Source: a virus (taxonomy: Duplodnaviria; Heunggongvirae; Uroviricota; Caudoviricetes). From it: a stretch of 6,274 bases of DNA. The notes beneath the pieces were generated by a model, which saw nothing but the letters and a program-made list of their open reading frames with translations, did not search any database and had not been told where the DNA came from. Every line of letters starts with the position of its first letter. The first letter of the stretch is position 1. The stretch is taken from IMG/VR virus record IMGVR_UViG_2681813205_000009, one strand, 5' to 3'. The position numbers and the translations under genes are program-made. Below, piece after piece: positions 152-6,274 of this stretch.

Positions 152-492
152 CAGTTCACCACCTGCTCAATCGTACAGCTGAAATCACTGTACCGGGCGT
201 TATCCGTGACGCTCCACTCCCGGCACACCACCCTCACCGTCCGGTTATGTTTCGGCGGTCGCCACAAAAAGGCACGGTAACCACCATGCCAGGATAAAAA
301 TTCATCCAGCCAGCGCCGGGTTGACTCATCCGTCACCCGGAACACCGCCTGAAACGTCTTCAGTTGAGGATTCAGCCCTGTGGGGCGACGCTGTTCATAA
401 CCGTCACCAAACCGTACCCTCGCCACCGACGGTTTCTCACTCACCTGCATCCCTTCACGCGGGACCAGATGCAGCGTTTTTATCTCAGCCAC
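151..492 (-). CDS. M: Minor tail protein M (113 aa)
   Basis: ORF track 151..492(-). Clear similarity to recalled lambda gpM (VRFGDGY, LKT, HGG..FLW.PP, C-terminal EQVVN). The start is GTG at 492..490, with an in-frame TGA immediately upstream so no ATG extension is possible. GGAGGAA Shine-Dalgarno lies about 7 nt upstream. Overlaps the tape measure stop by 8 nt (GTGGCTGA). Confidence 0.9.
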   Translation of the reverse strand: MAEIKTLHLVPREGMQVSEKPSVARVRFGDGYEQRRPTGLNPQLKTFQAVFRVTDESTRRWLDEFLSWHGGYRAFLWRPPKHNRTVRVVCREWSVTDNARYSDFSCTIEQVVN

Positions 493-3400
493 TCAGCATT
501 CCTCCGTCACGTCGCATGGACAGCATCACCGCCTGCACCCGCTGGTCAATCAGCTGCACAAGACTGCCTGCCGCCTCCGGCCCTATCTGGCCATTAGCCC
601 CGTCATTCTGAATGGCGATGTGGTAGACCGGGGAATACACCAGACCGGCACTGCCGTTCATACTGCCCACCGCGCGTACGCCCAGCGAGCCATCCGCCGC
701 CCGGGTCAGGGGCATAATGGCTTCAGGACCGGCCTCCCCCATCAGTCCCGCCCCTTTTGCAAAGGCAAAGTACGTGGGCGTATCCACAATACTGTTGCTG
801 TACGCACTCAGGTTTGCCGAGGTATACACGCCGCCTTTTGCATTGGCCACCGCCCCGCCCAGCCAGTCACCAATGCTGCCGAGAAATCCTCCCGCACCGG
901 ACATACCGTTTGCCGCCGTCTTAATTCCGTTGACAATCGCGGCATTCATAAGAACTTTTGATATTTCCTGCAGCACTGATGAGGCCCAGCTGCGCCATTC
1001 CACTTTATTTCCGTTCAGCATCTCCGTGATGTTATTCACCATCCCTGAGATACCCTCCGTCGCAAGCTGTGCTGCCTGTGAGGCGTAATCGGACGCATTA
1101 TCCACCCAGTTACTGAATCCCTCCTGCAGCCCTTTCTGCCAGTCCGCACGCTGCACATCCGATTCGGCATAAAAGGCTGCCTGGTCCTTAAGGCGTTCGC
1201 TCAGATACTGCGCGTTCTGTGCCCGTGCCTGTCTGTAAAAATCCTCACTGATATCCCCGGTCTGATACTGAGACTGAAGGTCCGCATCCTTCTGGCGGAA
1301 GCTGTCGCGGATCTGCTGCAACTCCCGCATGCGTTCTCTGGCTCGTTCCCCCTGCCCGTACCCCAGCAGTTCAGCATCATTCGACGCACGCGCAGCCGCA
1401 TTCTCATTCTTCAGTGTCTCTTCCCGGGATCGCAACTGTTCCCGGATTTTTTGCTGGTCAATCAGGGCCGCATTACGCAGCAGCTCCTGCTTCTGCATCT
1501 CCGTCAGGGTTTTCAGTTCGCCCTGCGCAGTCTGGTATTTCAGCTTCGCCAGCTCTGTATTCTGACCCGCCAGTGCCAGTTGCTCTTTCTGCTGCTTCAG
1601 TAGCCGGGAAAAACTGTCTTCCGCTTTTTCCGTCTCTGATTTTCTACCCCGGGATTTAGGTTTGTTCGCCTCGTTATTACGCCAGGCTTCCAGAGCATTA
1701 CTGATATAACGCTGTCTCGCCTCCTGATACGAATCCCCCACAAAACCAAGGTCATCCGCCGCATACCCCAGCCGGGCACGCTCTTTTTCCTCCCCCTTCA
1801 GTCGGGACAGGGCCAGCTCACGTTCTGTTTTTGTCAGGGCGCTCTGCTGTTTATCATCCAGGGTGGCCTGCGGCAGCCGTAACGGTACATTCACCAGTCC
1901 CTGACGCTGCTGAAGCAGTTCATTCCCCAGCCCCAGCAGACGGTTGAATTCCGTATGCTGACCGTTCATAACCAGCATGGACTGGTACACCTTATTCTGC
2001 TCTGCCGCCTGCTGACGAATTAACGCCACACGACGGTCTTCCAGCCCGGCAAGCACATCCTGAATGGACTGCGCTTTTTCCTGCATCTGTGCCAGACGGG
2101 ACTGCTCAACGGCAAGCTGCTCTGTTGCCTGAGCAAGCCCTTCCGTTACGGTCTTCACCGAGGTCAGATGGTTTATCATGAATCCGTCACCGGTCGTCCA
2201 GCCCGGGTTCGCCAGAACATACTGATATCCTGCGATTTTTTCCTGCAGGGATTTCACCCGACTGGCCTGTTCATCAATCAGCCGGTTCTGCTCTGTCAGC
2301 GCCGCCCGTGTTCGTCCTTCATTATCTGAGGCTTCAGGCAAAGACATTGACGGCGTTTTATGCGCGATTTCATCTATCGTCAGTGCATACTGGCGCGCAG
2401 ACTCCCTGGCCTGCTCCTGATTCTGGTACAGCGTGTACCATGCTGCAGCCCCCAGCATCACCAGTCCGGGTACGCCACCAACCAGCCCCAGCGCACCGCT
2501 CATCAGACGTGAGCCCACCGCCGTTGTACTGTTCAGCGCATTCTGGGCGGCGCTTCTGGCAGCAATATTTCTGTTCAGGCGTTCCTGTGTGGCCGCCAGA
2601 CGGGCCTCTGCAGCAATCTGCATCTCCGTCCCGCGGGCTGCCGCCACGGCCTGCTGAGCACGGTACACGGCTGCCCTTGCCCGCGCCGTGGCAATCTGCG
2701 TTCCCCTGAACTGTGCTTCCGCCAGTGCCACTTCATTACGTGCTGCCGTCACAAGTCCTGCCGTGGCAGACACCGCTCCGGAGGCCATATTGCCAAAGTA
2801 CCGGGCAACCCCGACGGCAACCAGCGCGCCCACGGCTGTTGCCACATTATCAATCTGTCCGGCAACACCGTTCAGCATGCCGGAGAGCGTTTTTGTCACC
2901 CCGCTGGCCTCATTCGCACCGCCCACCCAGGCCATAAAGGCGTTTTCCACCTTTGTGATACTACTGGAAACCGTTTCCGGCATGGCCGCATATTCATCAC
3001 GTAATATCCCCAGCTGGCTGATTAACGCGGGGACCACTTTATCCGCTGTCAGTTTTCCGTCATCCGCCATTGCCTTCAGATCTTTACGGGCCACGCCCAT
3101 ACCCGCAGCCAGTGCACGTACGATCCGGTCACCACTTTCATTGACCGAATTAAATTCCTCACCGCGTAACACACCCTGTGCCAGCGCCTGGCTGAACTGG
3201 GTGATCACCGAGCCCGCCTCTGCCGTACTGGCACCGGAGATTTTCAGCCCCGTGGAAATGGCCTCCGTCACCTTCAGCACATCATCAGCACTGTAACCAT
3301 ATTCACGCATTGAGGCTGCCGAGCGGGCAAACAGGGCCGCATTATCTGAAAATGCCGTGCCCGTCCGCTGACTGATATCCATCAGCACTTTCTGTGATGA

Positions 3401-3727
3401 CGAAAATTCATCAGATGACTGCGACGCCTGTTTCAGACGGGCATTCACGGAACTCCACTCATCAGCCAGTGAAATCAGGTGTCCGGTGGCAAAGGCACCG
3501 GCAAATGCGCCAGCCATTCCGACAGCAGAACCGCGAATTTCCGTCAACTGGCTGTTCAGTTCTGCCAGGGCACGTCGCTGCTCCCGGGCTGCCGCAGCGG
3601 CCTGACGCCCGCCATTCTGCAGGGTCCGGTAATATTCACTGCCCATACGGGAAGCACGCTGGAGCTCCGACTGGAATGACTGTGAATTTGCCGAAATTTT
3701 GATAATCAGTTCACGTAACGTCGCCAT
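485..3727 (-). CDS. H: Tail tape measure protein (1080 aa)
   Basis: Longest ORF in the window, positioned between the G-T chaperone genes and M. Ala/Gln/Arg-rich, predicted alpha-helical central region; hydrophobic Gly/Ala-rich segments (e.g. LMSGALGLVGGVPGLVMLGAAAWYTLY). The C-terminal tail (NDGANGQIGPEAAG...RRDGGMLSG) resembles the recalled lambda gpH C-terminus (NNDGTNGQIGPAAL...MRDGGLFSG). The N-terminal ~250 aa looks like a generic tape-measure N-terminal domain rather than lambda H. GAAAGG Shine-Dalgarno precedes the ATG at 3727. Confidence 0.95.
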   Translation of the reverse strand: MATLRELIIKISANSQSFQSELQRASRMGSEYYRTLQNGGRQAAAAAREQRRALAELNSQLTEIRGSAVGMAGAFAGAFATGHLISLADEWSSVNARLKQASQSSDEFSSSQKVLMDISQRTGTAFSDNAALFARSAASMREYGYSADDVLKVTEAISTGLKISGASTAEAGSVITQFSQALAQGVLRGEEFNSVNESGDRIVRALAAGMGVARKDLKAMADDGKLTADKVVPALISQLGILRDEYAAMPETVSSSITKVENAFMAWVGGANEASGVTKTLSGMLNGVAGQIDNVATAVGALVAVGVARYFGNMASGAVSATAGLVTAARNEVALAEAQFRGTQIATARARAAVYRAQQAVAAARGTEMQIAAEARLAATQERLNRNIAARSAAQNALNSTTAVGSRLMSGALGLVGGVPGLVMLGAAAWYTLYQNQEQARESARQYALTIDEIAHKTPSMSLPEASDNEGRTRAALTEQNRLIDEQASRVKSLQEKIAGYQYVLANPGWTTGDGFMINHLTSVKTVTEGLAQATEQLAVEQSRLAQMQEKAQSIQDVLAGLEDRRVALIRQQAAEQNKVYQSMLVMNGQHTEFNRLLGLGNELLQQRQGLVNVPLRLPQATLDDKQQSALTKTERELALSRLKGEEKERARLGYAADDLGFVGDSYQEARQRYISNALEAWRNNEANKPKSRGRKSETEKAEDSFSRLLKQQKEQLALAGQNTELAKLKYQTAQGELKTLTEMQKQELLRNAALIDQQKIREQLRSREETLKNENAAARASNDAELLGYGQGERARERMRELQQIRDSFRQKDADLQSQYQTGDISEDFYRQARAQNAQYLSERLKDQAAFYAESDVQRADWQKGLQEGFSNWVDNASDYASQAAQLATEGISGMVNNITEMLNGNKVEWRSWASSVLQEISKVLMNAAIVNGIKTAANGMSGAGGFLGSIGDWLGGAVANAKGGVYTSANLSAYSNSIVDTPTYFAFAKGAGLMGEAGPEAIMPLTRAADGSLGVRAVGSMNGSAGLVYSPVYHIAIQNDGANGQIGPEAAGSLVQLIDQRVQAVMLSMRRDGGMLSG

Positions 3728-3743: not shown

Positions 3744-3768
3744 AAAAAAACCTGCCACAGCAGGTTTT
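3744..3768 (-). terminator. Terminator-like hairpin in the T-H intergenic region (possibly bidirectional)
   Basis: Minus strand reads AAACCTGC-TGTG-GCAGGTTT followed by TTTTTTTGCC: an 8-bp stem with a 5-bp GC core (plus-strand arms 3751..3755 and 3760..3764), a 4-nt loop and a T-run. It sits in the 50-nt gap between the T-frame stop (3778) and the tape measure start (3727). Confidence 0.45.
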
Positions 3769-3777
3769 CATCATTAT

Positions 3778-4457
3778 TTATGACATTGCTGCAAAGCTCA
3801 GCGCGTCTTCCAGCGCCGCAAACGGATCTGACTCCACTTTATCCTCATCCTCGCCCCAGCAGAGCATGGCGTCCTCCAGTGAAACATTCATCCCCTGCGC
3901 CCCGAAAACCGCTTTCACGATCTGCGCATTACGGATATCCCCGCGCTCATCGCCCAGCGGGGACACCCTGTCGAACTCCATCCACATCATCGCCTCGCTC
4001 GCACTCAGACTGTGGCCCAGTTCGGATAAGGTGCGCCCCAGACGGAGCGCAAGTCGCATCAGAAAGCGAATTTCCGGGCGGGCTACTTTTTTCTGGCCGA
4101 CTCTGCATCAGCGATCAGTTCCAGTGCCTGACGCAGCAACCGGGCATGTACCGGACCATAGACGGCCAGCACCTGCTCACGGTCGTCCGGAGTGAACACC
4201 CGCTGCAGATCCGTATCACACAGGACATCGCAGAACAGCGTCACATCCGCTTCCAGGTTACGGCGGGTTTTCGCCACCACCGACAGGGTATCGTCATCCT
4301 CTCCATCACCATTGAGCACTTCCTGCCACAGATACCAGGCCTCTGCCGAAGGCTCCCGCAGCACCACGCTGACATTACCCCATTCCGGCACCTTCACCGT
4401 TTTATGACGAAACCCTGACAGTCTGGCCAGCGCCAGCGTTTTCAGATCCTTTTTCAT
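3778..4457 (-). CDS. Tail assembly chaperone G-T fusion made by -1 programmed ribosomal frameshift (about 226 aa)
   Basis: The G frame ends ...ARKK-TAG at 4083..4085. Slipping -1 at A_AAA_AAG (4086..4092) continues as VARPEIRFLMRLALRLGRTLSELGH..., which is exactly the ORF-track T-frame ORF 3778..4059. The T frame has no ribosome-binding site or independent context of its own. Position between major tail and tape measure genes matches the conserved G/GT arrangement of long-tailed phages. Confidence 0.8.
4083..4457 (-). CDS. Tail assembly chaperone G (about 124 aa from ATG 4457; the track ORF extends to 4505)
   Basis: ORF track 4083..4505(-). I prefer the in-frame ATG at 4457 (MKKDLKTLALARL...): it lies 14 nt after the major tail stop and is preceded by AAGGGGA. 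The 4505 start would overlap the major tail gene by 34 nt and add an Arg-rich leader. Acidic segment (NGDGEDDD) and terminal slippery heptamer are typical of G-like chaperones. Confidence 0.8.
   Translation of the reverse strand: MKKDLKTLALARLSGFRHKTVKVPEWGNVSVVLREPSAEAWYLWQEVLNGDGEDDDTLSVVAKTRRNLEADVTLFCDVLCDTDLQRVFTPDDREQVLAVYGPVHARLLRQALELIADAESARKK
4086..4092 (-). other. -1 programmed frameshift slippery heptamer A_AAA_AAG
   Basis: Minus strand reads GCC AGA AAA AAG TAG. The heptamer A AAA AAG (the same motif as the E. coli dnaX shift site) sits immediately before the G stop, and the -1 frame stays open for 102 codons to 3778. Confidence 0.8.
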
Positions 4458-4471
4458 GATGACCCATCCCC

Positions 4472-5188
4472 TTATCCGGCGGCTGCGCTCACTGTCACGG
4501 TGCATTCAACAGACGTCACACTCTGTGCTTTCTCTGCCGAATCGGTCACCACGCAGGTATATTTCCCCGCATCAGCGGACTGCGCACCTGGCTTACTGAA
4601 GGTGTCTGTCGTCTGCCCGTCAACCGGCTGACCATCCTTCTTCCAGGCGTATTTATACGGCGGCGTTCCCCCGTTGGCACTGACTGACATTGTCAGCAGC
4701 GCACCTGTATTCACGGTAAGTGTTTTATCCAGATTTTTCACAAACGCCAGCGGTACCACAAAGGACACCGGTTTGCCTTTCATACGCAGTGAAAACGTTG
4801 CTGCCACCACGCCGTTGGTACCGGATGACCAGGTGTGCTGACGCACTTCCGCCAGGAACTTAAAGCCCTTACCGGACGGAAACAGCACCTTAAACGCATA
4901 CAACGCGTCATTGTCATAGGCATCACGCAGGGCGTTCTGGGCCTGATTCAGATAAAAATTACCCGACATGGAAATCTCAGACGACGCCCCCAGACCGTTG
5001 ATGTTCTCCTGCTCTGTGGAGCAGAGCGTGGTCACATCAATATCCTGTTTCTGACCGGCGGTGAACTGGACTTCCTTGATGGTGCAGTCCAGGCGCAGAT
5101 ATTCCGCCTTATCCATAGTTTCAGCAGTCGCCGGGGCAGATGAAATCATCACCTGCGTCAGCTGTGAGCGTTCATACAAAGCAGACAT
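4472..5188 (-). CDS. Major tail (tube) protein with C-terminal Ig-like domain (238 aa)
   Basis: ORF track 4472..5188(-). Strong AGGAGG Shine-Dalgarno 4 nt upstream of ATG 5188. Lies immediately upstream of G/G-T, the conserved major-tail position. The C-terminal ~80 aa carry an immunoglobulin-type motif (YKYAWKKDGQPV...DAGKYTCVVTD), as seen in Ig-like decorations of phage major tail proteins. Confidence 0.88.
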   Translation of the reverse strand: MSALYERSQLTQVMISSAPATAETMDKAEYLRLDCTIKEVQFTAGQKQDIDVTTLCSTEQENINGLGASSEISMSGNFYLNQAQNALRDAYDNDALYAFKVLFPSGKGFKFLAEVRQHTWSSGTNGVVAATFSLRMKGKPVSFVVPLAFVKNLDKTLTVNTGALLTMSVSANGGTPPYKYAWKKDGQPVDGQTTDTFSKPGAQSADAGKYTCVVTDSAEKAQSVTSVECTVTVSAAAG

Positions 5189-5204
5189 TCTGCCTCCTGA
5201 TAAT

Positions 5205-5225
5205 AAAAAACCCGCACGCGGCGGG
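5205..5225 (-). terminator. Terminator-like hairpin in the intergenic region upstream of the major tail gene
   Basis: Minus strand reads CCCGC-CGCGT-GCGGG followed directly by TTTTTTATTA: a 5-bp all-GC stem (plus-strand arms 5211..5215 and 5221..5225), 5-nt loop and T6 run, about 17 nt upstream of the major tail AGGAGG. Confidence 0.4.
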
Positions 5226-5254
5226 GTATGGGTTTTGTAGAAAAAAAGAAAAAG

Positions 5255-5599
5255 TCACACCGTGACCTGAAACTCCAGGGTTGCACGGTAACAGCGGTTT
5301 TCCGGAATATAGTCCTGCATTTCACTGACGGATCCCGGGGCCAGCAGCATTATGGCTTCACGGGCGTCCTGACGTATCTGACGCGCCTGCGTCACAGTCC
5401 CGGCATAAACGTCTATCTGCACCGACACTGAGGACTCCGCCTGCCCGCCCATCACGTCCGCCGACACCGATGAAATCAGGCTGAAAACCACCCACGGAAG
5501 CGCCACCGACGGCCTGCCATCCAGCAGGGGGACCACATACGGGTACACCTGCCCGCCGGCAAGATGCGCCAGATGAGGATACAAATCCGCCTCCGTCAT
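5255..5599 (-). CDS. Tail terminator / tail completion protein, lambda U position (114 aa)
   Basis: ORF track 5255..5599(-). Size and position (immediately upstream of the major tail gene) match the tail-terminator slot. The N-terminal pattern (VYP...DGRP...PWVVF) resembles what I recall of DUF3168-type tail terminator proteins. Start ATG overlaps the upstream stop as ATGA. Family assignment is from memory, not a search. Confidence 0.65.
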   Translation of the reverse strand: MTEADLYPHLAHLAGGQVYPYVVPLLDGRPSVALPWVVFSLISSVSADVMGGQAESSVSVQIDVYAGTVTQARQIRQDAREAIMLLAPGSVSEMQDYIPENRCYRATLEFQVTV

Positions 5600-6042
5600 C
5601 GTCTCAGTACCTCATCAATGGCCCGGTTCATCCGAGCAATCGCCACTTGCGCTGCCTGTTCACTGCGCACATCAAACGCCGGACGCACAAACGGGTGCGG
5701 TGGCATATTCACGGTCCCCATTTCCACAAACCGCCAGTAGAAAGCGTTGCGCGGGTTATCCGCCTTCATGGTGTTATCGCTGTTACCGGTGTCCGGATTA
5801 ACACCCCGGATATGCACACCGGATTCCATCCCGCCATCGCGGGAGCGCCGGGAAAGGACCACCACATTGCGGCGCAGTTTTCCCCTGCGTACCGGTGCCC
5901 GTGACACCACTTCTTCTTTCAGCACATTCGCACCCGCACGGGTTGCCTCACGCAGCACCCGGTTATTTTCCGCACCACTCAGAAGCTGCAAATCGCGGCT
6001 GATGTCCTCCAGCCCCGAAAAATCCAGCAGGGTTTCGATCAT
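5596..6042 (-). CDS. HK97 gp10-family tail-component protein, lambda Z position (148 aa)
   Basis: ORF track 5596..6042(-). GGGAGG Shine-Dalgarno 7 nt upstream of ATG 6042. Conserved-looking C-terminal segment (AFYWRFVEMGT...PPHPFVRPAFD) resembles the HK97 gp10 family as I recall it. Positioned two genes upstream of the major tail gene. Confidence 0.7.
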   Translation of the reverse strand: MIETLLDFSGLEDISRDLQLLSGAENNRVLREATRAGANVLKEEVVSRAPVRRGKLRRNVVVLSRRSRDGGMESGVHIRGVNPDTGNSDNTMKADNPRNAFYWRFVEMGTVNMPPHPFVRPAFDVRSEQAAQVAIARMNRAIDEVLRR

Positions 6043-6184
6043 TTTTCACCTCCCAGCCGACAGAGAATTTCCAGACGTCCGCCGGTCGCATCCGGCACGG
6101 GCAGCCCGACAACGTTCAGGATCCGGTCACGCCAGGGACCACTCAGCACATGAAGTCGTGACGCTGCCGTCGATACTCCTGATT

Positions 6185-6214
6185 ATGATATCTTTTTAAC
6201 GGATAATCTGTCAA
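6185..6214 (-). promoter_or_regulatory. Candidate sigma70-type promoter reading into the tail genes
   Basis: Minus strand has TTGACA (complement of 6214..6209), an 18-nt spacer, then TATCAT (complement of 6190..6185): a perfect -35 and a 5/6 -10. It lies inside the only AT-rich island of an otherwise GC-rich window. Predicted start near 6178, about 136 nt upstream of the ATG at 6042. Confidence 0.35.
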
Positions 6215-6274
6215 ATCTTACTGACTCTGGCTTGCTTTTAAGCGATGATGAGTCTGGCGTACGGGCAATTGGCC
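6186..6274 (-). CDS. Possible 3' end of an upstream gene (C-terminal ~30 codons, unknown product)
   Basis: Only one minus-strand frame is open across 6186..6274, ending at TAA 6185..6183 with ...PDSSSLKSKPESVRFDRLSVKKIS. The composition is AT-rich and low-complexity, so coding status is doubtful. Not in the ORF track. Confidence 0.2.

What the first reader, a model, noticed from the sequence alone, without database searches (positions are those of the whole stretch)
5205..5225. Intrinsic-terminator-like hairpin immediately upstream of the most abundant tail protein gene
A GC stem plus T6 run on the coding strand sits between the U-like gene and the major tail gene. A terminator there looks counterintuitive, since the tube protein is needed in the highest copy number. 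It is consistent with antiterminated late transcription reading through while unmodified polymerase is blocked (which would also insulate the downstream genes from the candidate promoter at 6185..6214), or with an RNA stability or processing element.
Basis: partly seen in the sequence, partly recalled or inferred. Interest (0 to 1): 0.45.

Follow-up and report, generated by a model that had tools for sequence, protein, structure and literature searches.

The report
Conserved terminator hairpin before tail-tube gene
A small GC hairpin followed by six T's just upstream of the phage tail-tube gene is a real, deeply conserved terminator-type signal, but the same site is already annotated as a putative terminator in phage HK97, so it is an ordinary feature whose exact role is still untested.

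Summary
On the coding (-) strand a 5-bp all-GC stem with a 5-nt loop (5225..5211) is followed by T6 (5210..5205). It lies 16 nt before the ATG of the major tail gene and 30 nt after the stop codon of the gp17-type tail-terminator gene.

The single sequence is weak evidence: dG is -8.5 kcal/mol, z is -1.35, and the pattern scan finds no more sites than shuffles do. Comparison settles it. Of 35 distinct homologous loci, from Escherichia to Burkholderia and down to 37% protein identity, 34 carry a hairpin plus T-run at this position. Chance gives about 1.5%. Stems and loops differ and show compensatory changes.

HK97 (gp12 is 79% identical) and HK542 already annotate this site as a putative or rho-independent terminator. 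The same hairpin/T-run/ribosome-binding-site cassette sits before the tape-measure gene in the window (3768..3744) and before the capsid gene in a complete relative.

It most likely blocks unmodified RNA polymerase and is read through by Q-modified polymerase. A Q-like gene lies 17 kb upstream in phage 2851. A post-transcriptional role is not excluded, and no 3'-end data were available. The window itself is a truncated prophage fused to rcsD. Verdict: already known kind, low interest.

The parts
5211..5225 (-). Stem-loop H2: CCCGC / CGCGT / GCGGG (five G-C pairs, 5-nt loop)
   Evidence: Sequence; scan; dG -8.5 kcal/mol. Homologous hairpins with different stems and loops occur in 34 of 35 distinct relatives. 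Covariation count.
5205..5210 (-). T6 run (U-tract) directly abutting the stem
   Evidence: Every relative has a run of T5 to T9, sometimes with one interruption, at the same place.
5186..5204 (-). AU-rich linker ATTATC, Shine-Dalgarno AGGAGG (5198..5193), spacer CAGA and the ATG (5188..5186) of the major tail gene
   Evidence: The distance from stem end to ATG is 22 nt here and 18-25 nt in all relatives.
5226..5254 (-). Spacer between the upstream stop codon and H2. It is T-rich in this lineage (T5CT7 at 5253..5241) and C/A-rich and G-poor in most relatives.
   Evidence: It carries homopolymer-length indels among near-identical relatives, while H2, the T6 run and the Shine-Dalgarno sequence stay fixed.
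5252..5268 (-). Upstream weak hairpin H1 (AGGTCAC / GGT / GTGACTT) overlapping the TGA stop codon (5257..5255) and followed by the T-rich tract
   Evidence: Scan; dG about -6 kcal/mol. One close variant keeps it through a double change (GATCAC..GTGATC) and another loses it through a TAA stop. It is absent from distant relatives, so it is probably accessory.
5255..5599 (-). Upstream gene: tail completion / tail terminator protein (gp17 type, functional analogue of lambda U)
   Evidence: Pfam PF11367 at 32.4 bits against a 24.5 cut-off. RefSeq annotations in relatives.
4472..5188 (-). Downstream gene: major tail (tube) subunit with a C-terminal Ig-like domain
   Evidence: 79% identity to HK97 gp12 over residues 1-141. 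Ig_3, Ig_2 and I-set domains above their cut-offs. Annotated 'major tail subunit' in relatives.
3744..3768 (-). Sister cassette before the tape-measure gene: AAAACCTGC / TGTG / GCAGGTTTT plus TTT, then GCCC GGAG AAAGGTGA ATG (ATG at 3727)
   Evidence: Sequence. A hairpin plus T-run 16-23 nt before the conserved tape-measure start (MATLREL) occurs in most relatives, with different stems and often a UUCG loop. HK97 annotates a putative terminator at 8398..8422, just before its tape-measure gene.

Best explanation
It is a factor-independent (intrinsic) transcription terminator. It is one of a small conserved set that punctuates the late structural operon of HK97-type head-tail modules: before the capsid gene, before the tail-tube gene and before the tape-measure gene.

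Proposed mechanism. As RNA polymerase transcribes the 66-nt gap after the tail-terminator gene, the nascent CCCGC...GCGGG hairpin forms at the RNA exit channel while the weak rU-dA hybrid of the U6 tract is in the active site. Ordinary polymerase then releases the transcript, probably with only moderate efficiency for this 5-bp version. During lytic growth, polymerase modified by the phage Q antiterminator at the late promoter ignores such signals and carries on into the tail genes.

The element therefore keeps any polymerase that did not start at the antiterminated late promoter out of the tail genes. Examples are read-in from the host, spurious starts and moron promoters. It may also trim a fraction of late transcripts.

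What is shown: the sequence anatomy, strand specificity, deep conservation with compensatory changes, the homologous annotated sites, and a Q-like gene upstream on the same strand in complete relatives. What is inferred: termination of unmodified polymerase, read-through by Q-modified polymerase, and the selective benefit.

In this particular window the prophage is truncated and joined to rcsD. The element is probably an inherited relic with no late promoter left within the window.
For: 1. Canonical anatomy on the sense strand only: a GC stem, a 3-8 nt loop and a T-run abutting the stem.
2. The element is present in 34 of 35 distinct homologous loci, against about 1.5% expected by chance.
3. 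Relatives carry textbook terminators: 7-9 bp stems, UUCG/UACG/UCCG or GNRA-type tetraloops, T6-T9 runs and 2-3 A's upstream that pair with the first U's. Their dG is -10 to -18 kcal/mol.
4. The structure is kept through sequence change. 88% of cells are paired against 36-54% when the partner column is slid. There are 28 double-change cells, and 0 of 500 shuffles reach the observed covariation score.
5. The stop codon lies about 15-30 nt upstream of the stem, and the intergenic length is 52-66 nt in nearly all loci. This leaves the hairpin clear of a terminating ribosome.
6. HK97 (AF069529, 6692..6719) and HK542 (6642..6664) annotate the homologous site as a putative or rho-independent terminator.
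7. Phage 2851 has a Q-like antiterminator gene followed by stx2c, lysis, terminase, head and tail genes; all but one small gene (DUF3950, between the lysis genes and the terminase) are on that strand. The site lies about 17 kb downstream of q. Antitermination control of Stx-phage late genes is described in PMC7547250.
8. Intra-operon terminators in lambdoid late operons are a recognised phenomenon (PMC8022706).
Against: No RNA 3'-end, in vitro transcription or reporter data were available, so function rests on sequence signature and conservation.

The window's own hairpin is at the weak end: 5 bp, -8.5 kcal/mol, z -1.35. At equilibrium an alternative AAAACCC/GGGUUUU helix (-9.9 kcal/mol) out-competes it, leaving H2 with about 7% pair probability in a 210-nt context. 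That alternative can only form after the U-tract has been transcribed.

The hairpin always sits next to the ribosome-binding site of the next gene (18-25 nt from the ATG), which a pure terminator does not require.

The Burkholderia relatives have no recognisable Q-type antiterminator. Two candidate ORFs of KS9 gave no Pfam hit. A strong terminator (-18 kcal/mol in Bcep176) in front of the tail-tube gene is awkward there unless an unknown antitermination or RNA-level role exists.

A terminator ahead of the most abundant tail protein gives no obvious stoichiometric benefit.
Confidence: 0.58

Rival explanations
1. Post-transcriptional punctuation. The selected function acts in the full-length late mRNA rather than on the polymerase. 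The stable hairpin would block 3'-to-5' exonucleases for the upstream segment. After RNase E cleavage in the unstructured spacer, it would also cap the 5' end of the tail-tube message. The U-rich tract between hairpin and Shine-Dalgarno sequence, and the C/A-rich spacer, would serve as a ribosomal protein S1 or standby platform that raises translation of the next gene. The tail-tube, G and T genes would then form a stabilised sub-message bracketed by two hairpins.
For: The hairpin-to-ATG distance is tightly fixed at 18-25 nt.

The same cassette precedes the capsid and tape-measure genes. The tube/G/T block is therefore bracketed by hairpins in the window and in most relatives.

Where the upstream gene is unrelated (L096, L098) or frameshifted (L090), the hairpin still sits next to the tail-tube ribosome-binding site.

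A/U-rich and C/A-rich sequences upstream of Shine-Dalgarno sites are documented translational enhancers acting through S1 (review PMC7769764). From memory, not re-read here: the E. coli rnd leader has a terminator-like hairpin plus U8 whose U's are required for translation (Zhang and Deutscher 1992).
Against: A U-run directly abutting a GC stem, UNCG/GNRA loops and A's paired to the first U's are the specific signature of terminators. An RNA stabiliser needs none of these.

Genome compaction explains the adjacency to the ribosome-binding site. In HK97 every annotated late-operon terminator fills the gap between a stop codon and the next ribosome-binding site.

The cassette also precedes the tape-measure gene, whose product is needed in only a few copies.

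In-silico accessibility of the tail-tube ribosome-binding site is unchanged by mutating or deleting the hairpin (0.35 against 0.35-0.37).
Confidence: 0.25
2. Leaky attenuator. Even Q-modified polymerase terminates at a modest rate at each of the three sites. This would give a stepwise fall in transcript dosage from head genes to tube genes to tail-tip genes, helping to set structural protein ratios.
For: There are three serial sites at module boundaries in complete relatives. Partial termination is one of the two possibilities offered for such terminators in PMC8022706. The site before the tape-measure gene fits, because the products downstream of it are needed in low copy number.
Against: The site before the tail-tube gene would lower the dose of the most abundant tail protein relative to the low-copy neck proteins encoded upstream of it. 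From established knowledge of lambda, Q modification gives very efficient read-through. No data were available here.
Confidence: 0.12
3. The terminator is the 3' end of a small Hfq-binding RNA derived from the 3' end of the tail-terminator gene message. The layout hairpin H1, U-rich tract, hairpin H2 and U6 resembles the Hfq-binding module of sRNAs. Such an RNA would be expressed in lysogens, like the Pas and EcOnc prophage sRNAs.
For: The layout at 5268..5205 looks like 'hairpin, U-rich stretch, terminator hairpin, poly-U'. That module is described by Ishikawa et al. 2012, as cited in PMC4104026. An Hfq-dependent sRNA is known from this type of tail module: PasB (83 nt), between the I-like gene and J on the opposite strand. 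EcOnc22 (~85 nt) occupies the same I-J gap, antisense, in the lambda-type-tail prophage Sp15.
Against: There is no Rfam match in the window at E up to 1, and the PasB probe sequence is absent. None of the EcOnc peaks I could place lies at a junction of this kind. H1 and the U-rich tract are confined to the closest relatives, and distant relatives have a C/A-rich spacer instead. No promoter-like site lies in or near the spacer.
Confidence: 0.04
4. Chance hairpin with no function.
For: Single-sequence statistics are unimpressive: z -1.35, and 5 pattern matches against 4.4 expected in the window.
Against: The element is conserved at the same position in 34 of 35 distinct loci, down to 37% protein identity, with compensatory changes. 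Within close relatives the neighbouring spacer drifts while the hairpin stays fixed.
Confidence: 0.01

Closest known systems
Putative terminator between genes 11 and 12 of coliphage HK97 (GenBank AF069529, regulatory feature 6692..6719), and the 'rho-independent terminator' at 6642..6664 of phage HK542 (NC_019769)
   Same: The position is homologous, between the gp11/gp17-type tail-terminator gene and the major tail subunit gene (79% identity to the window's protein for HK97, 50% for HK542). The architecture is the same: spacer, GC hairpin, T-run, Shine-Dalgarno sequence, ATG. The spacing is the same, with the stem end 19-20 nt from the ATG against 22 nt here.
   Different: The HK97 stem is 9 bp (GAACCCGCC/GGCGGGTTT, -15.5 kcal/mol), while the window has 5 bp (-8.5 kcal/mol) plus an extra weak hairpin over the stop codon. 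HK97 and HK542 also have a hairpin right after the major tail gene, whereas the window has only a 14-nt gap there. The annotations are predictions; I found no experimental test of them.
Intra-operon terminators of lambdoid late operons read through by Q-type antitermination (lambda, P22 and L paradigm)
   Same: These are intrinsic-terminator signatures inside a long single-promoter late operon, downstream of a Q-type antiterminator gene. [quoted passage not shown] Phage 2851 shows the Q-like gene to tail-gene layout.
   Different: The documented example in L lies at the end of the procapsid module of a P22-like phage and is not homologous to this site. Lambda-type tail modules have no room for such an element between U and V: the gap is 7 nt in Sakai Sp15.
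U-rich and C/A-rich translational enhancers upstream of Shine-Dalgarno sequences, which bind ribosomal protein S1 (rnd, manY and others)
   Same: There is a U-rich tract within about 12 nt upstream of the Shine-Dalgarno sequence, preceded in rnd by a terminator-like hairpin (from memory), and many relatives have a C/A-rich spacer (review PMC7769764).
   Different: No test of translation was possible. The in-silico accessibility test gave no effect. The full terminator signature is more than an enhancer needs.
Prophage-encoded Hfq-dependent sRNAs of pathogenic E. coli (PasB and EcOnc22/23/24)
   Same: PasB is encoded in the intergenic space of the same type of tail module and ends in an intrinsic terminator; EcOnc22 sits at the equivalent I-J position of a lambda-type-tail prophage.
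   Different: They lie between the I-like gene and the J gene on the opposite strand, outside this window. There is no sequence match and no Rfam hit.

Membership tests
Intrinsic (Rho-independent) transcription terminator | G+C-rich stem of about 5-14 bp with a short loop (3-8 nt) | tested here: met
   CCCGC/CGCGT/GCGGG, with five G-C pairs and a 5-nt loop. This is at the short end of the range.
Intrinsic (Rho-independent) transcription terminator | Run of U's (at least 5 of 8) starting directly at the 3' foot of the stem, on the transcribed sense strand | tested here: met
   T6 at 5210..5205, then ATTAT. There is no T-run on the + strand side.
Intrinsic (Rho-independent) transcription terminator | Hairpin stable enough to form co-transcriptionally and more stable than composition predicts | tested here: inconclusive
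   dG is -8.5 kcal/mol with z -1.35, and 19 of 200 shuffles fold as well. A competing -9.9 kcal/mol helix needs the U-tract. Relatives reach -10 to -18 kcal/mol.
Intrinsic (Rho-independent) transcription terminator | Structure conserved among homologues through compensatory change | tested here: met
   88% of cells are paired against 36-54% for slid controls. Five of 8 pairs show double changes, and 0 of 500 shuffles reach the covariation score. The CCGC/GCGG core itself rarely varies.
Intrinsic (Rho-independent) transcription terminator | RNA 3' ends in the U-tract, or measurable termination in vivo or in vitro | not testable with these tools
   The EHEC Term-seq data (Sakai strain; GEO GSE143631 is the accession given for the companion dRNA-seq set, the Term-seq accession is printed as 'GSE14363', presumably the same series; PMC7547250) are not held as text. 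The two Sakai prophages inspected carry lambda-type tails.
HK97-type late-operon terminator between gene 11 and gene 12 | Flanked by homologues of the HK97 gp11-type tail terminator and the gp12 major tail subunit | tested here: met
   79% identity to gp12. The upstream gene is of the gp17/gp11 type and is preceded by an HK97-gp10-like gene.
HK97-type late-operon terminator between gene 11 and gene 12 | Same place and geometry in the intergenic gap | tested here: met
   The gap is 66 nt against 59 nt in HK97. The stem end to ATG distance is 22 nt against 20 nt.
Q-antiterminated lambdoid late operon (read-through context) | Q-type antiterminator gene and late promoter upstream on the same strand | tested here: inconclusive
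   This is met in the complete relative, phage 2851. It is not visible for the window, because the prophage is cut off inside the head-closure gene at about 6175 and joined to an rcsD fragment.
Q-antiterminated lambdoid late operon (read-through context) | Modified polymerase reads through the site | not testable with these tools
   This needs in vitro transcription with and without Q, or induced against uninduced 3'-end mapping.
Known prophage sRNA families (Rfam, PasB, EcOnc) | Sequence and structure match to a described family | tested here: not met
   No Rfam match at E up to 1. The PasB probe has no match with up to 3 mismatches. PasB maps between the I-like gene and J on the other strand.
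S1-dependent U-rich translational enhancer | The U-rich element raises initiation at the adjacent ribosome-binding site | tested here: inconclusive
   A U6AUUAU tract is present 6 nt upstream of the Shine-Dalgarno sequence. Predicted accessibility of the ribosome-binding site is the same with and without the hairpin. A real test needs reporter fusions.

The most novel reading that the evidence does not exclude
The hairpin / U-run / Shine-Dalgarno cassette, kept at a fixed 18-25 nt from the start codons of the tail-tube and tape-measure genes from Escherichia to Burkholderia (and seen before the capsid gene in a complete E. coli-prophage relative), may be mainly an RNA-level expression module rather than a polymerase stop. 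It would combine a 5' cap hairpin, a 3' exonuclease block and an S1 or Hfq landing pad. This would carve the long late message into differently stable and differently translated segments, with tube-G-T as one bracketed unit. That would also explain why it persists in relatives with no recognisable Q-type antiterminator.
Probability: 0.2. Interest if true: 0.5.

Novelty: already known. Interest (0 to 1): 0.22.

Why it matters
It matters little for this window, where the element is an inherited feature of a truncated prophage.

It matters slightly more in general. Terminators inside phage late operons are widely annotated, yet their roles are stated to be unknown (PMC8022706). This family offers an unusually clean test case. 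It has three serial sites with fixed geometry and natural stem variants of graded strength. Its hosts range from E. coli to Burkholderia. Its members are well studied, such as HK97, or medically relevant, such as the Stx-converting phages.

Knowing whether these sites insulate, attenuate or act on the RNA would improve prediction of tail and toxin-phage gene expression. It would also help the design of engineered phages.

Tried and rejected
1. Opposite-strand or bidirectional terminator: rejected. The + strand has no T-run after the hairpin, and relatives have only 2-3 A's upstream.

2. Identity with the PasB sRNA. PasB is described as embedded in an operon of phage structural genes in phages that carry this same module (preprint 10.64898/2026.05.13.724894). 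I checked and rejected the link. PasB lies between the I-like gene and J on the other strand, and its probe is absent from the window.

3. Hfq-CRAC EcOnc list of strain Sakai: no entry could be placed at a junction of this kind. Sp15 and Sp4 carry lambda-type tails with no such gap, and EcOnc33 lies in the nanS/lysis region.

4. Alternative fold AAAACCC/GGGUUUU (-9.9 kcal/mol). It is favoured at equilibrium in this sequence, but it requires the U-tract, and the spacer upstream of the stem has a different sequence in distant relatives. I treat it as incidental.

5. In-silico accessibility of the ribosome-binding site with the hairpin mutated or deleted: no difference, so uninformative.

6. Junction cases in IMG/VR contigs. 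I first read L017 and L198 as mosaic break-points showing which gene the hairpin travels with. The foreign DNA starts with similar GTAAGCGT... ends on both sides, so these are insertion-sequence insertions, and I dropped the argument.

7. Whether Burkholderia relatives have a Q-type antiterminator: the two candidate ORFs of KS9 gave no Pfam hit, so this is unresolved.

8. The search for close relatives of the upstream gene returned only 100%-identical copies and gave no mosaic information.

9. The HK97/HK022 genome paper (Juhala et al. 2000) and Zhang and Deutscher 1992 are not held, so I could not read their wording.

Full report
**What is in the window**

All genes lie on the - strand. In the order they are transcribed they are:
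- the last 45 codons of a head-closure gene (6039..about 6174);
- an HK97-gp10-like gene (5596..6042);
- a gp17-type tail completion / tail-terminator gene (5255..5599);
- the major tail subunit with a C-terminal Ig-like domain (4472..5188);
- the G-like and T-like chaperone genes;
- a 1080-aa tape-measure gene (485..3727).

Pfam and the annotations of relatives support these assignments. The DNA is 98-99.8% identical to long-tailed Stx-converting phages of the genus Pankowvirus (phage 2851, YYZ-2008, JLK-2012) and to prophages of many E. coli strains.

**The observation**

The finding's coordinates are exact. The - strand reads CATAC-CCCGC-CGCGT-GCGGG-TTTTTT-ATTATC-AGGAGG-CAGA-ATG.
- The stem-loop is 5225..5211.
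- The T6 run is 5210..5205.
- The Shine-Dalgarno sequence is 5198..5193.
- The start codon is 5188..5186.

The hairpin begins 30 nt after the TGA stop of the upstream gene (5257..5255). As one sequence it is unremarkable:
- dG is -8.5 kcal/mol with z = -1.35, and 19 of 200 shuffles fold as well.
- The consensus scan finds 5 terminator-like sites in the window against 4.4 expected.
- At equilibrium a rival helix, AAAACCC/GGGUUUU (-9.9 kcal/mol), is preferred. It needs the U-tract, so it cannot precede the termination decision.

A second, weaker hairpin (5268..5252) overlaps the stop codon and is followed by T5CT7.

**Comparative evidence**

This is what establishes the element.

Among 80 near-identical IMG/VR loci, the hairpin, the T6 run and the Shine-Dalgarno sequence are almost invariant. 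The spacer just upstream shows homopolymer indels and substitutions.

I then collected divergent homologues of the major tail protein:
- 30 loci from Serratia, Symbiopectobacterium, Pectobacterium, Klebsiella, Raoultella, Enterobacter, Kosakonia, Leclercia, Providencia, Yersinia and others;
- phages HK97, HK542, Cronobacter ENT39118 and Morganella IME1369_02;
- the Burkholderia phages phi1026b, KS9 and Bcep176, which are only about 37% identical in protein.

Every one has a GC hairpin plus T-run just upstream of the tail-tube ribosome-binding site. By a strict rule (at least 5 bp, at least 4 GC pairs, at least 5 T in 8), 34 of 35 distinct upstream 60-mers qualify. The same rule is met by 1.4% of dinucleotide shuffles and 1.7% of random 60-mers from the same loci.

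Stems differ: CCCGC/GCGGG, ACCGCC/GGCGGT, CCACC/GGTGG, CCACT/AGTGG, GCTGC/GCAGC and GGCCCGC/GCGGGCC. Loops differ and are often UUCG, UACG, UCCG, GGAA, GAGA or GUAA.

On a MAFFT alignment, 88% of cells pair, against 36-54% when the partner column is slid. There are 28 double-change cells, and no shuffle out of 500 reaches the observed score. The caveat is that the CCGC/GCGG core rarely changes, so much of the covariation comes from one internal pair and the outer pairs.

Geometry is tight. The stem end lies 18-25 nt from the ATG, and the intergenic length is 52-66 nt in nearly all loci.

The element is absent where the module differs:
- The Pseudomonas relative at 29% identity has a 6-nt gap.
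- The lambda-type tail of the Sakai prophage Sp15 has a 7-nt gap before its major tail gene.

**It is one of a set**

In the window a sister cassette precedes the tape-measure gene: AAAACCTGC-TGTG-GCAGGTTTT-TTT-GCCC-GGAG-AAAGGTGA-ATG (stem 3768..3747). Most relatives have a hairpin plus T-run 16-23 nt before the conserved MATLREL start of that gene, again with varied stems.

In a complete relative (E. coli 97-3250 prophage, L001), the three sizeable gaps in the structural operon that carry a hairpin plus T-run are those before the capsid, tail-tube and tape-measure genes. Every other junction overlaps or is shorter than 25 nt, apart from a 44-nt gap after the capsid gene that holds a hairpin without a T-run.

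**Already annotated**

The HK97 record (AF069529) carries 'regulatory: terminator, putative' at 6692..6719, between genes 11 and 12. That is the homologous site, GAACCCGCC-AGAT-GGCGGGTTT-TCTTTTT. The record has five more such features in the late operon, flanking the head and tail-tube genes and preceding the tape-measure gene.

The HK542 record annotates 'rho-independent terminator' on both sides of its major tail gene. [quoted passage not shown] It suggests partial termination or the stopping of spurious, non-antiterminated transcription (PMC8022706).

**Mechanism**

The best-supported reading is a genuine intrinsic terminator. The signature goes beyond what an RNA stabiliser needs: a U-run at the foot of the stem, extra-stable tetraloops, and upstream A's that pair with the first U's. 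It is strand-specific and sits clear of the terminating ribosome.

In phage 2851 a Q-like antiterminator gene lies about 17 kb upstream, and every gene in between except one small DUF3950 gene (between the lysis genes and the terminase) is on that strand. Q-dependent antitermination of Stx-phage late genes is established (PMC7547250). I infer, but have not shown, two things. Polymerase modified at the late promoter reads through. Polymerase arriving from elsewhere is stopped, probably only partly by this 5-bp version.

The main rival is an RNA-level role in message stability and translation of the adjacent gene. In its favour:
- The distance to the ribosome-binding site is fixed.
- Two hairpins bracket the tube-G-T block.
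- The hairpin is retained next to the tail-tube gene where the upstream gene is unrelated (L096, L098) or frameshifted (L090).
- The Burkholderia relatives have no recognisable Q-type antiterminator.

Against it:
- Compaction explains the adjacency.
- The same cassette precedes the low-copy tape-measure gene.
- Predicted accessibility of the ribosome-binding site does not depend on the hairpin.

A small-RNA reading found no support. There is no Rfam hit, and PasB and the EcOnc peaks I could place lie elsewhere.

**This copy's context**

Similarity to phage DNA stops at about 6174. Window 6181..6272 is an internal piece of rcsD on the + strand, 95.7% identical to E. coli rcsD.

The prophage is therefore a remnant lacking its head genes and, within the window, any late promoter. 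None of the 5,426 complete E. coli genomes searched contains this junction.

Its TTGACA hexamer arises from two substitutions relative to E. coli rcsD. Any insulation of the tail genes from it is conjecture.

**Verdict**

The kind of element, and this very site in HK97, are already known. What this analysis adds is the depth of conservation, the covariation and the fixed geometry at three sites. That makes the family a good experimental handle on an acknowledged open question, but it is not a surprise.

Noticed in passing
window 3744..3768 (- strand): A second terminator-type cassette sits directly before the tape-measure gene: AAAACCTGC/TGTG/GCAGGTTTT plus TTT, then GGAG and the ATG at 3727. 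The scan reported it only on the + strand because the T's are consumed by A-T pairs. It is conserved with varied stems in most relatives.
   Followed up: yes
window 6175..6274: The prophage ends abruptly inside the head-closure gene and is joined to an internal fragment of rcsD (+ strand, 95.7% identical to E. coli rcsD). This is a truncated prophage that disrupts or replaces the 5' ~2.2 kb of the Rcs phosphorelay gene. None of 5,426 complete E. coli genomes has this junction, so the host may be a different Escherichia or Shigella lineage.
   Followed up: partly
window 6185..6214 (- strand): A near-consensus sigma-70 match (TTGACA, 18-nt spacer, TATCAT) lies antisense within the rcsD fragment. 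The -35 hexamer differs from E. coli rcsD by two substitutions (TTAGACGG becomes TTTGACAG on this strand).
   Followed up: partly
window 5252..5268 and 5241..5253 (- strand): A weak hairpin spans the stop codon of the tail-terminator gene and is followed by T5CT7. One close variant keeps the hairpin through a coding change plus a downstream change (GATCAC..GTGATC), and another loses it through a TAA stop. The T-runs vary in length among near-identical prophages, as expected for slippage.
   Followed up: partly
L017:1-122 and L198:1383-1440 (IMG/VR relatives): Two contigs carry foreign DNA with similar GTAAGCGT... terminal sequences inserted into the 66-nt gap. One insertion is just 5' of the hairpin and the other is immediately after the T6 run. 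They look like insertion-sequence ends (IS66-like, from memory). A third contig (L059) has unrelated DNA right up to the ATG. The gap seems to be a recurrent insertion target.
   Followed up: partly
L113:3257-3496 (E2348/69) and L205:7692-7931 (Sakai Sp15): The published Hfq-dependent sRNAs PasB (83 nt) and EcOnc22 (~85 nt) both lie in the gap between the I-like tail assembly gene and J, antisense to the tail genes. They are probably the same sRNA family. PasB's host prophage carries the same type of tail module as the window; Sp15 has a lambda-type tail. This region lies downstream of the window.
   Followed up: partly
L001:11076-11119 (- strand): In the complete relative, a GC-rich hairpin without a T-run (GGGAGGCG-TG-CGCCTCCC) follows the major capsid gene. 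HK97 likewise has a hairpin without a T-run after its major tail gene.
   Followed up: no
window 3778..4505 (- strand): The G-like (about 4083..4457) and T-like (3778..4059) chaperone ORFs have the usual layout for a programmed -1 frameshift product. HK97 annotates a joined gp13/gp14. The slippery site was not looked for.
   Followed up: no
L118:536-553 (Burkholderia phage phi1026b): The hairpin of this distant relative (CTCGC-CGCGT-GCGGG) matches the window's 15-mer (CCCGC-CGCGT-GCGGG) at 14 of 15 positions, although the flanking proteins are only about 37% identical. This is probably convergence within a small design space, but it is striking.
   Followed up: no
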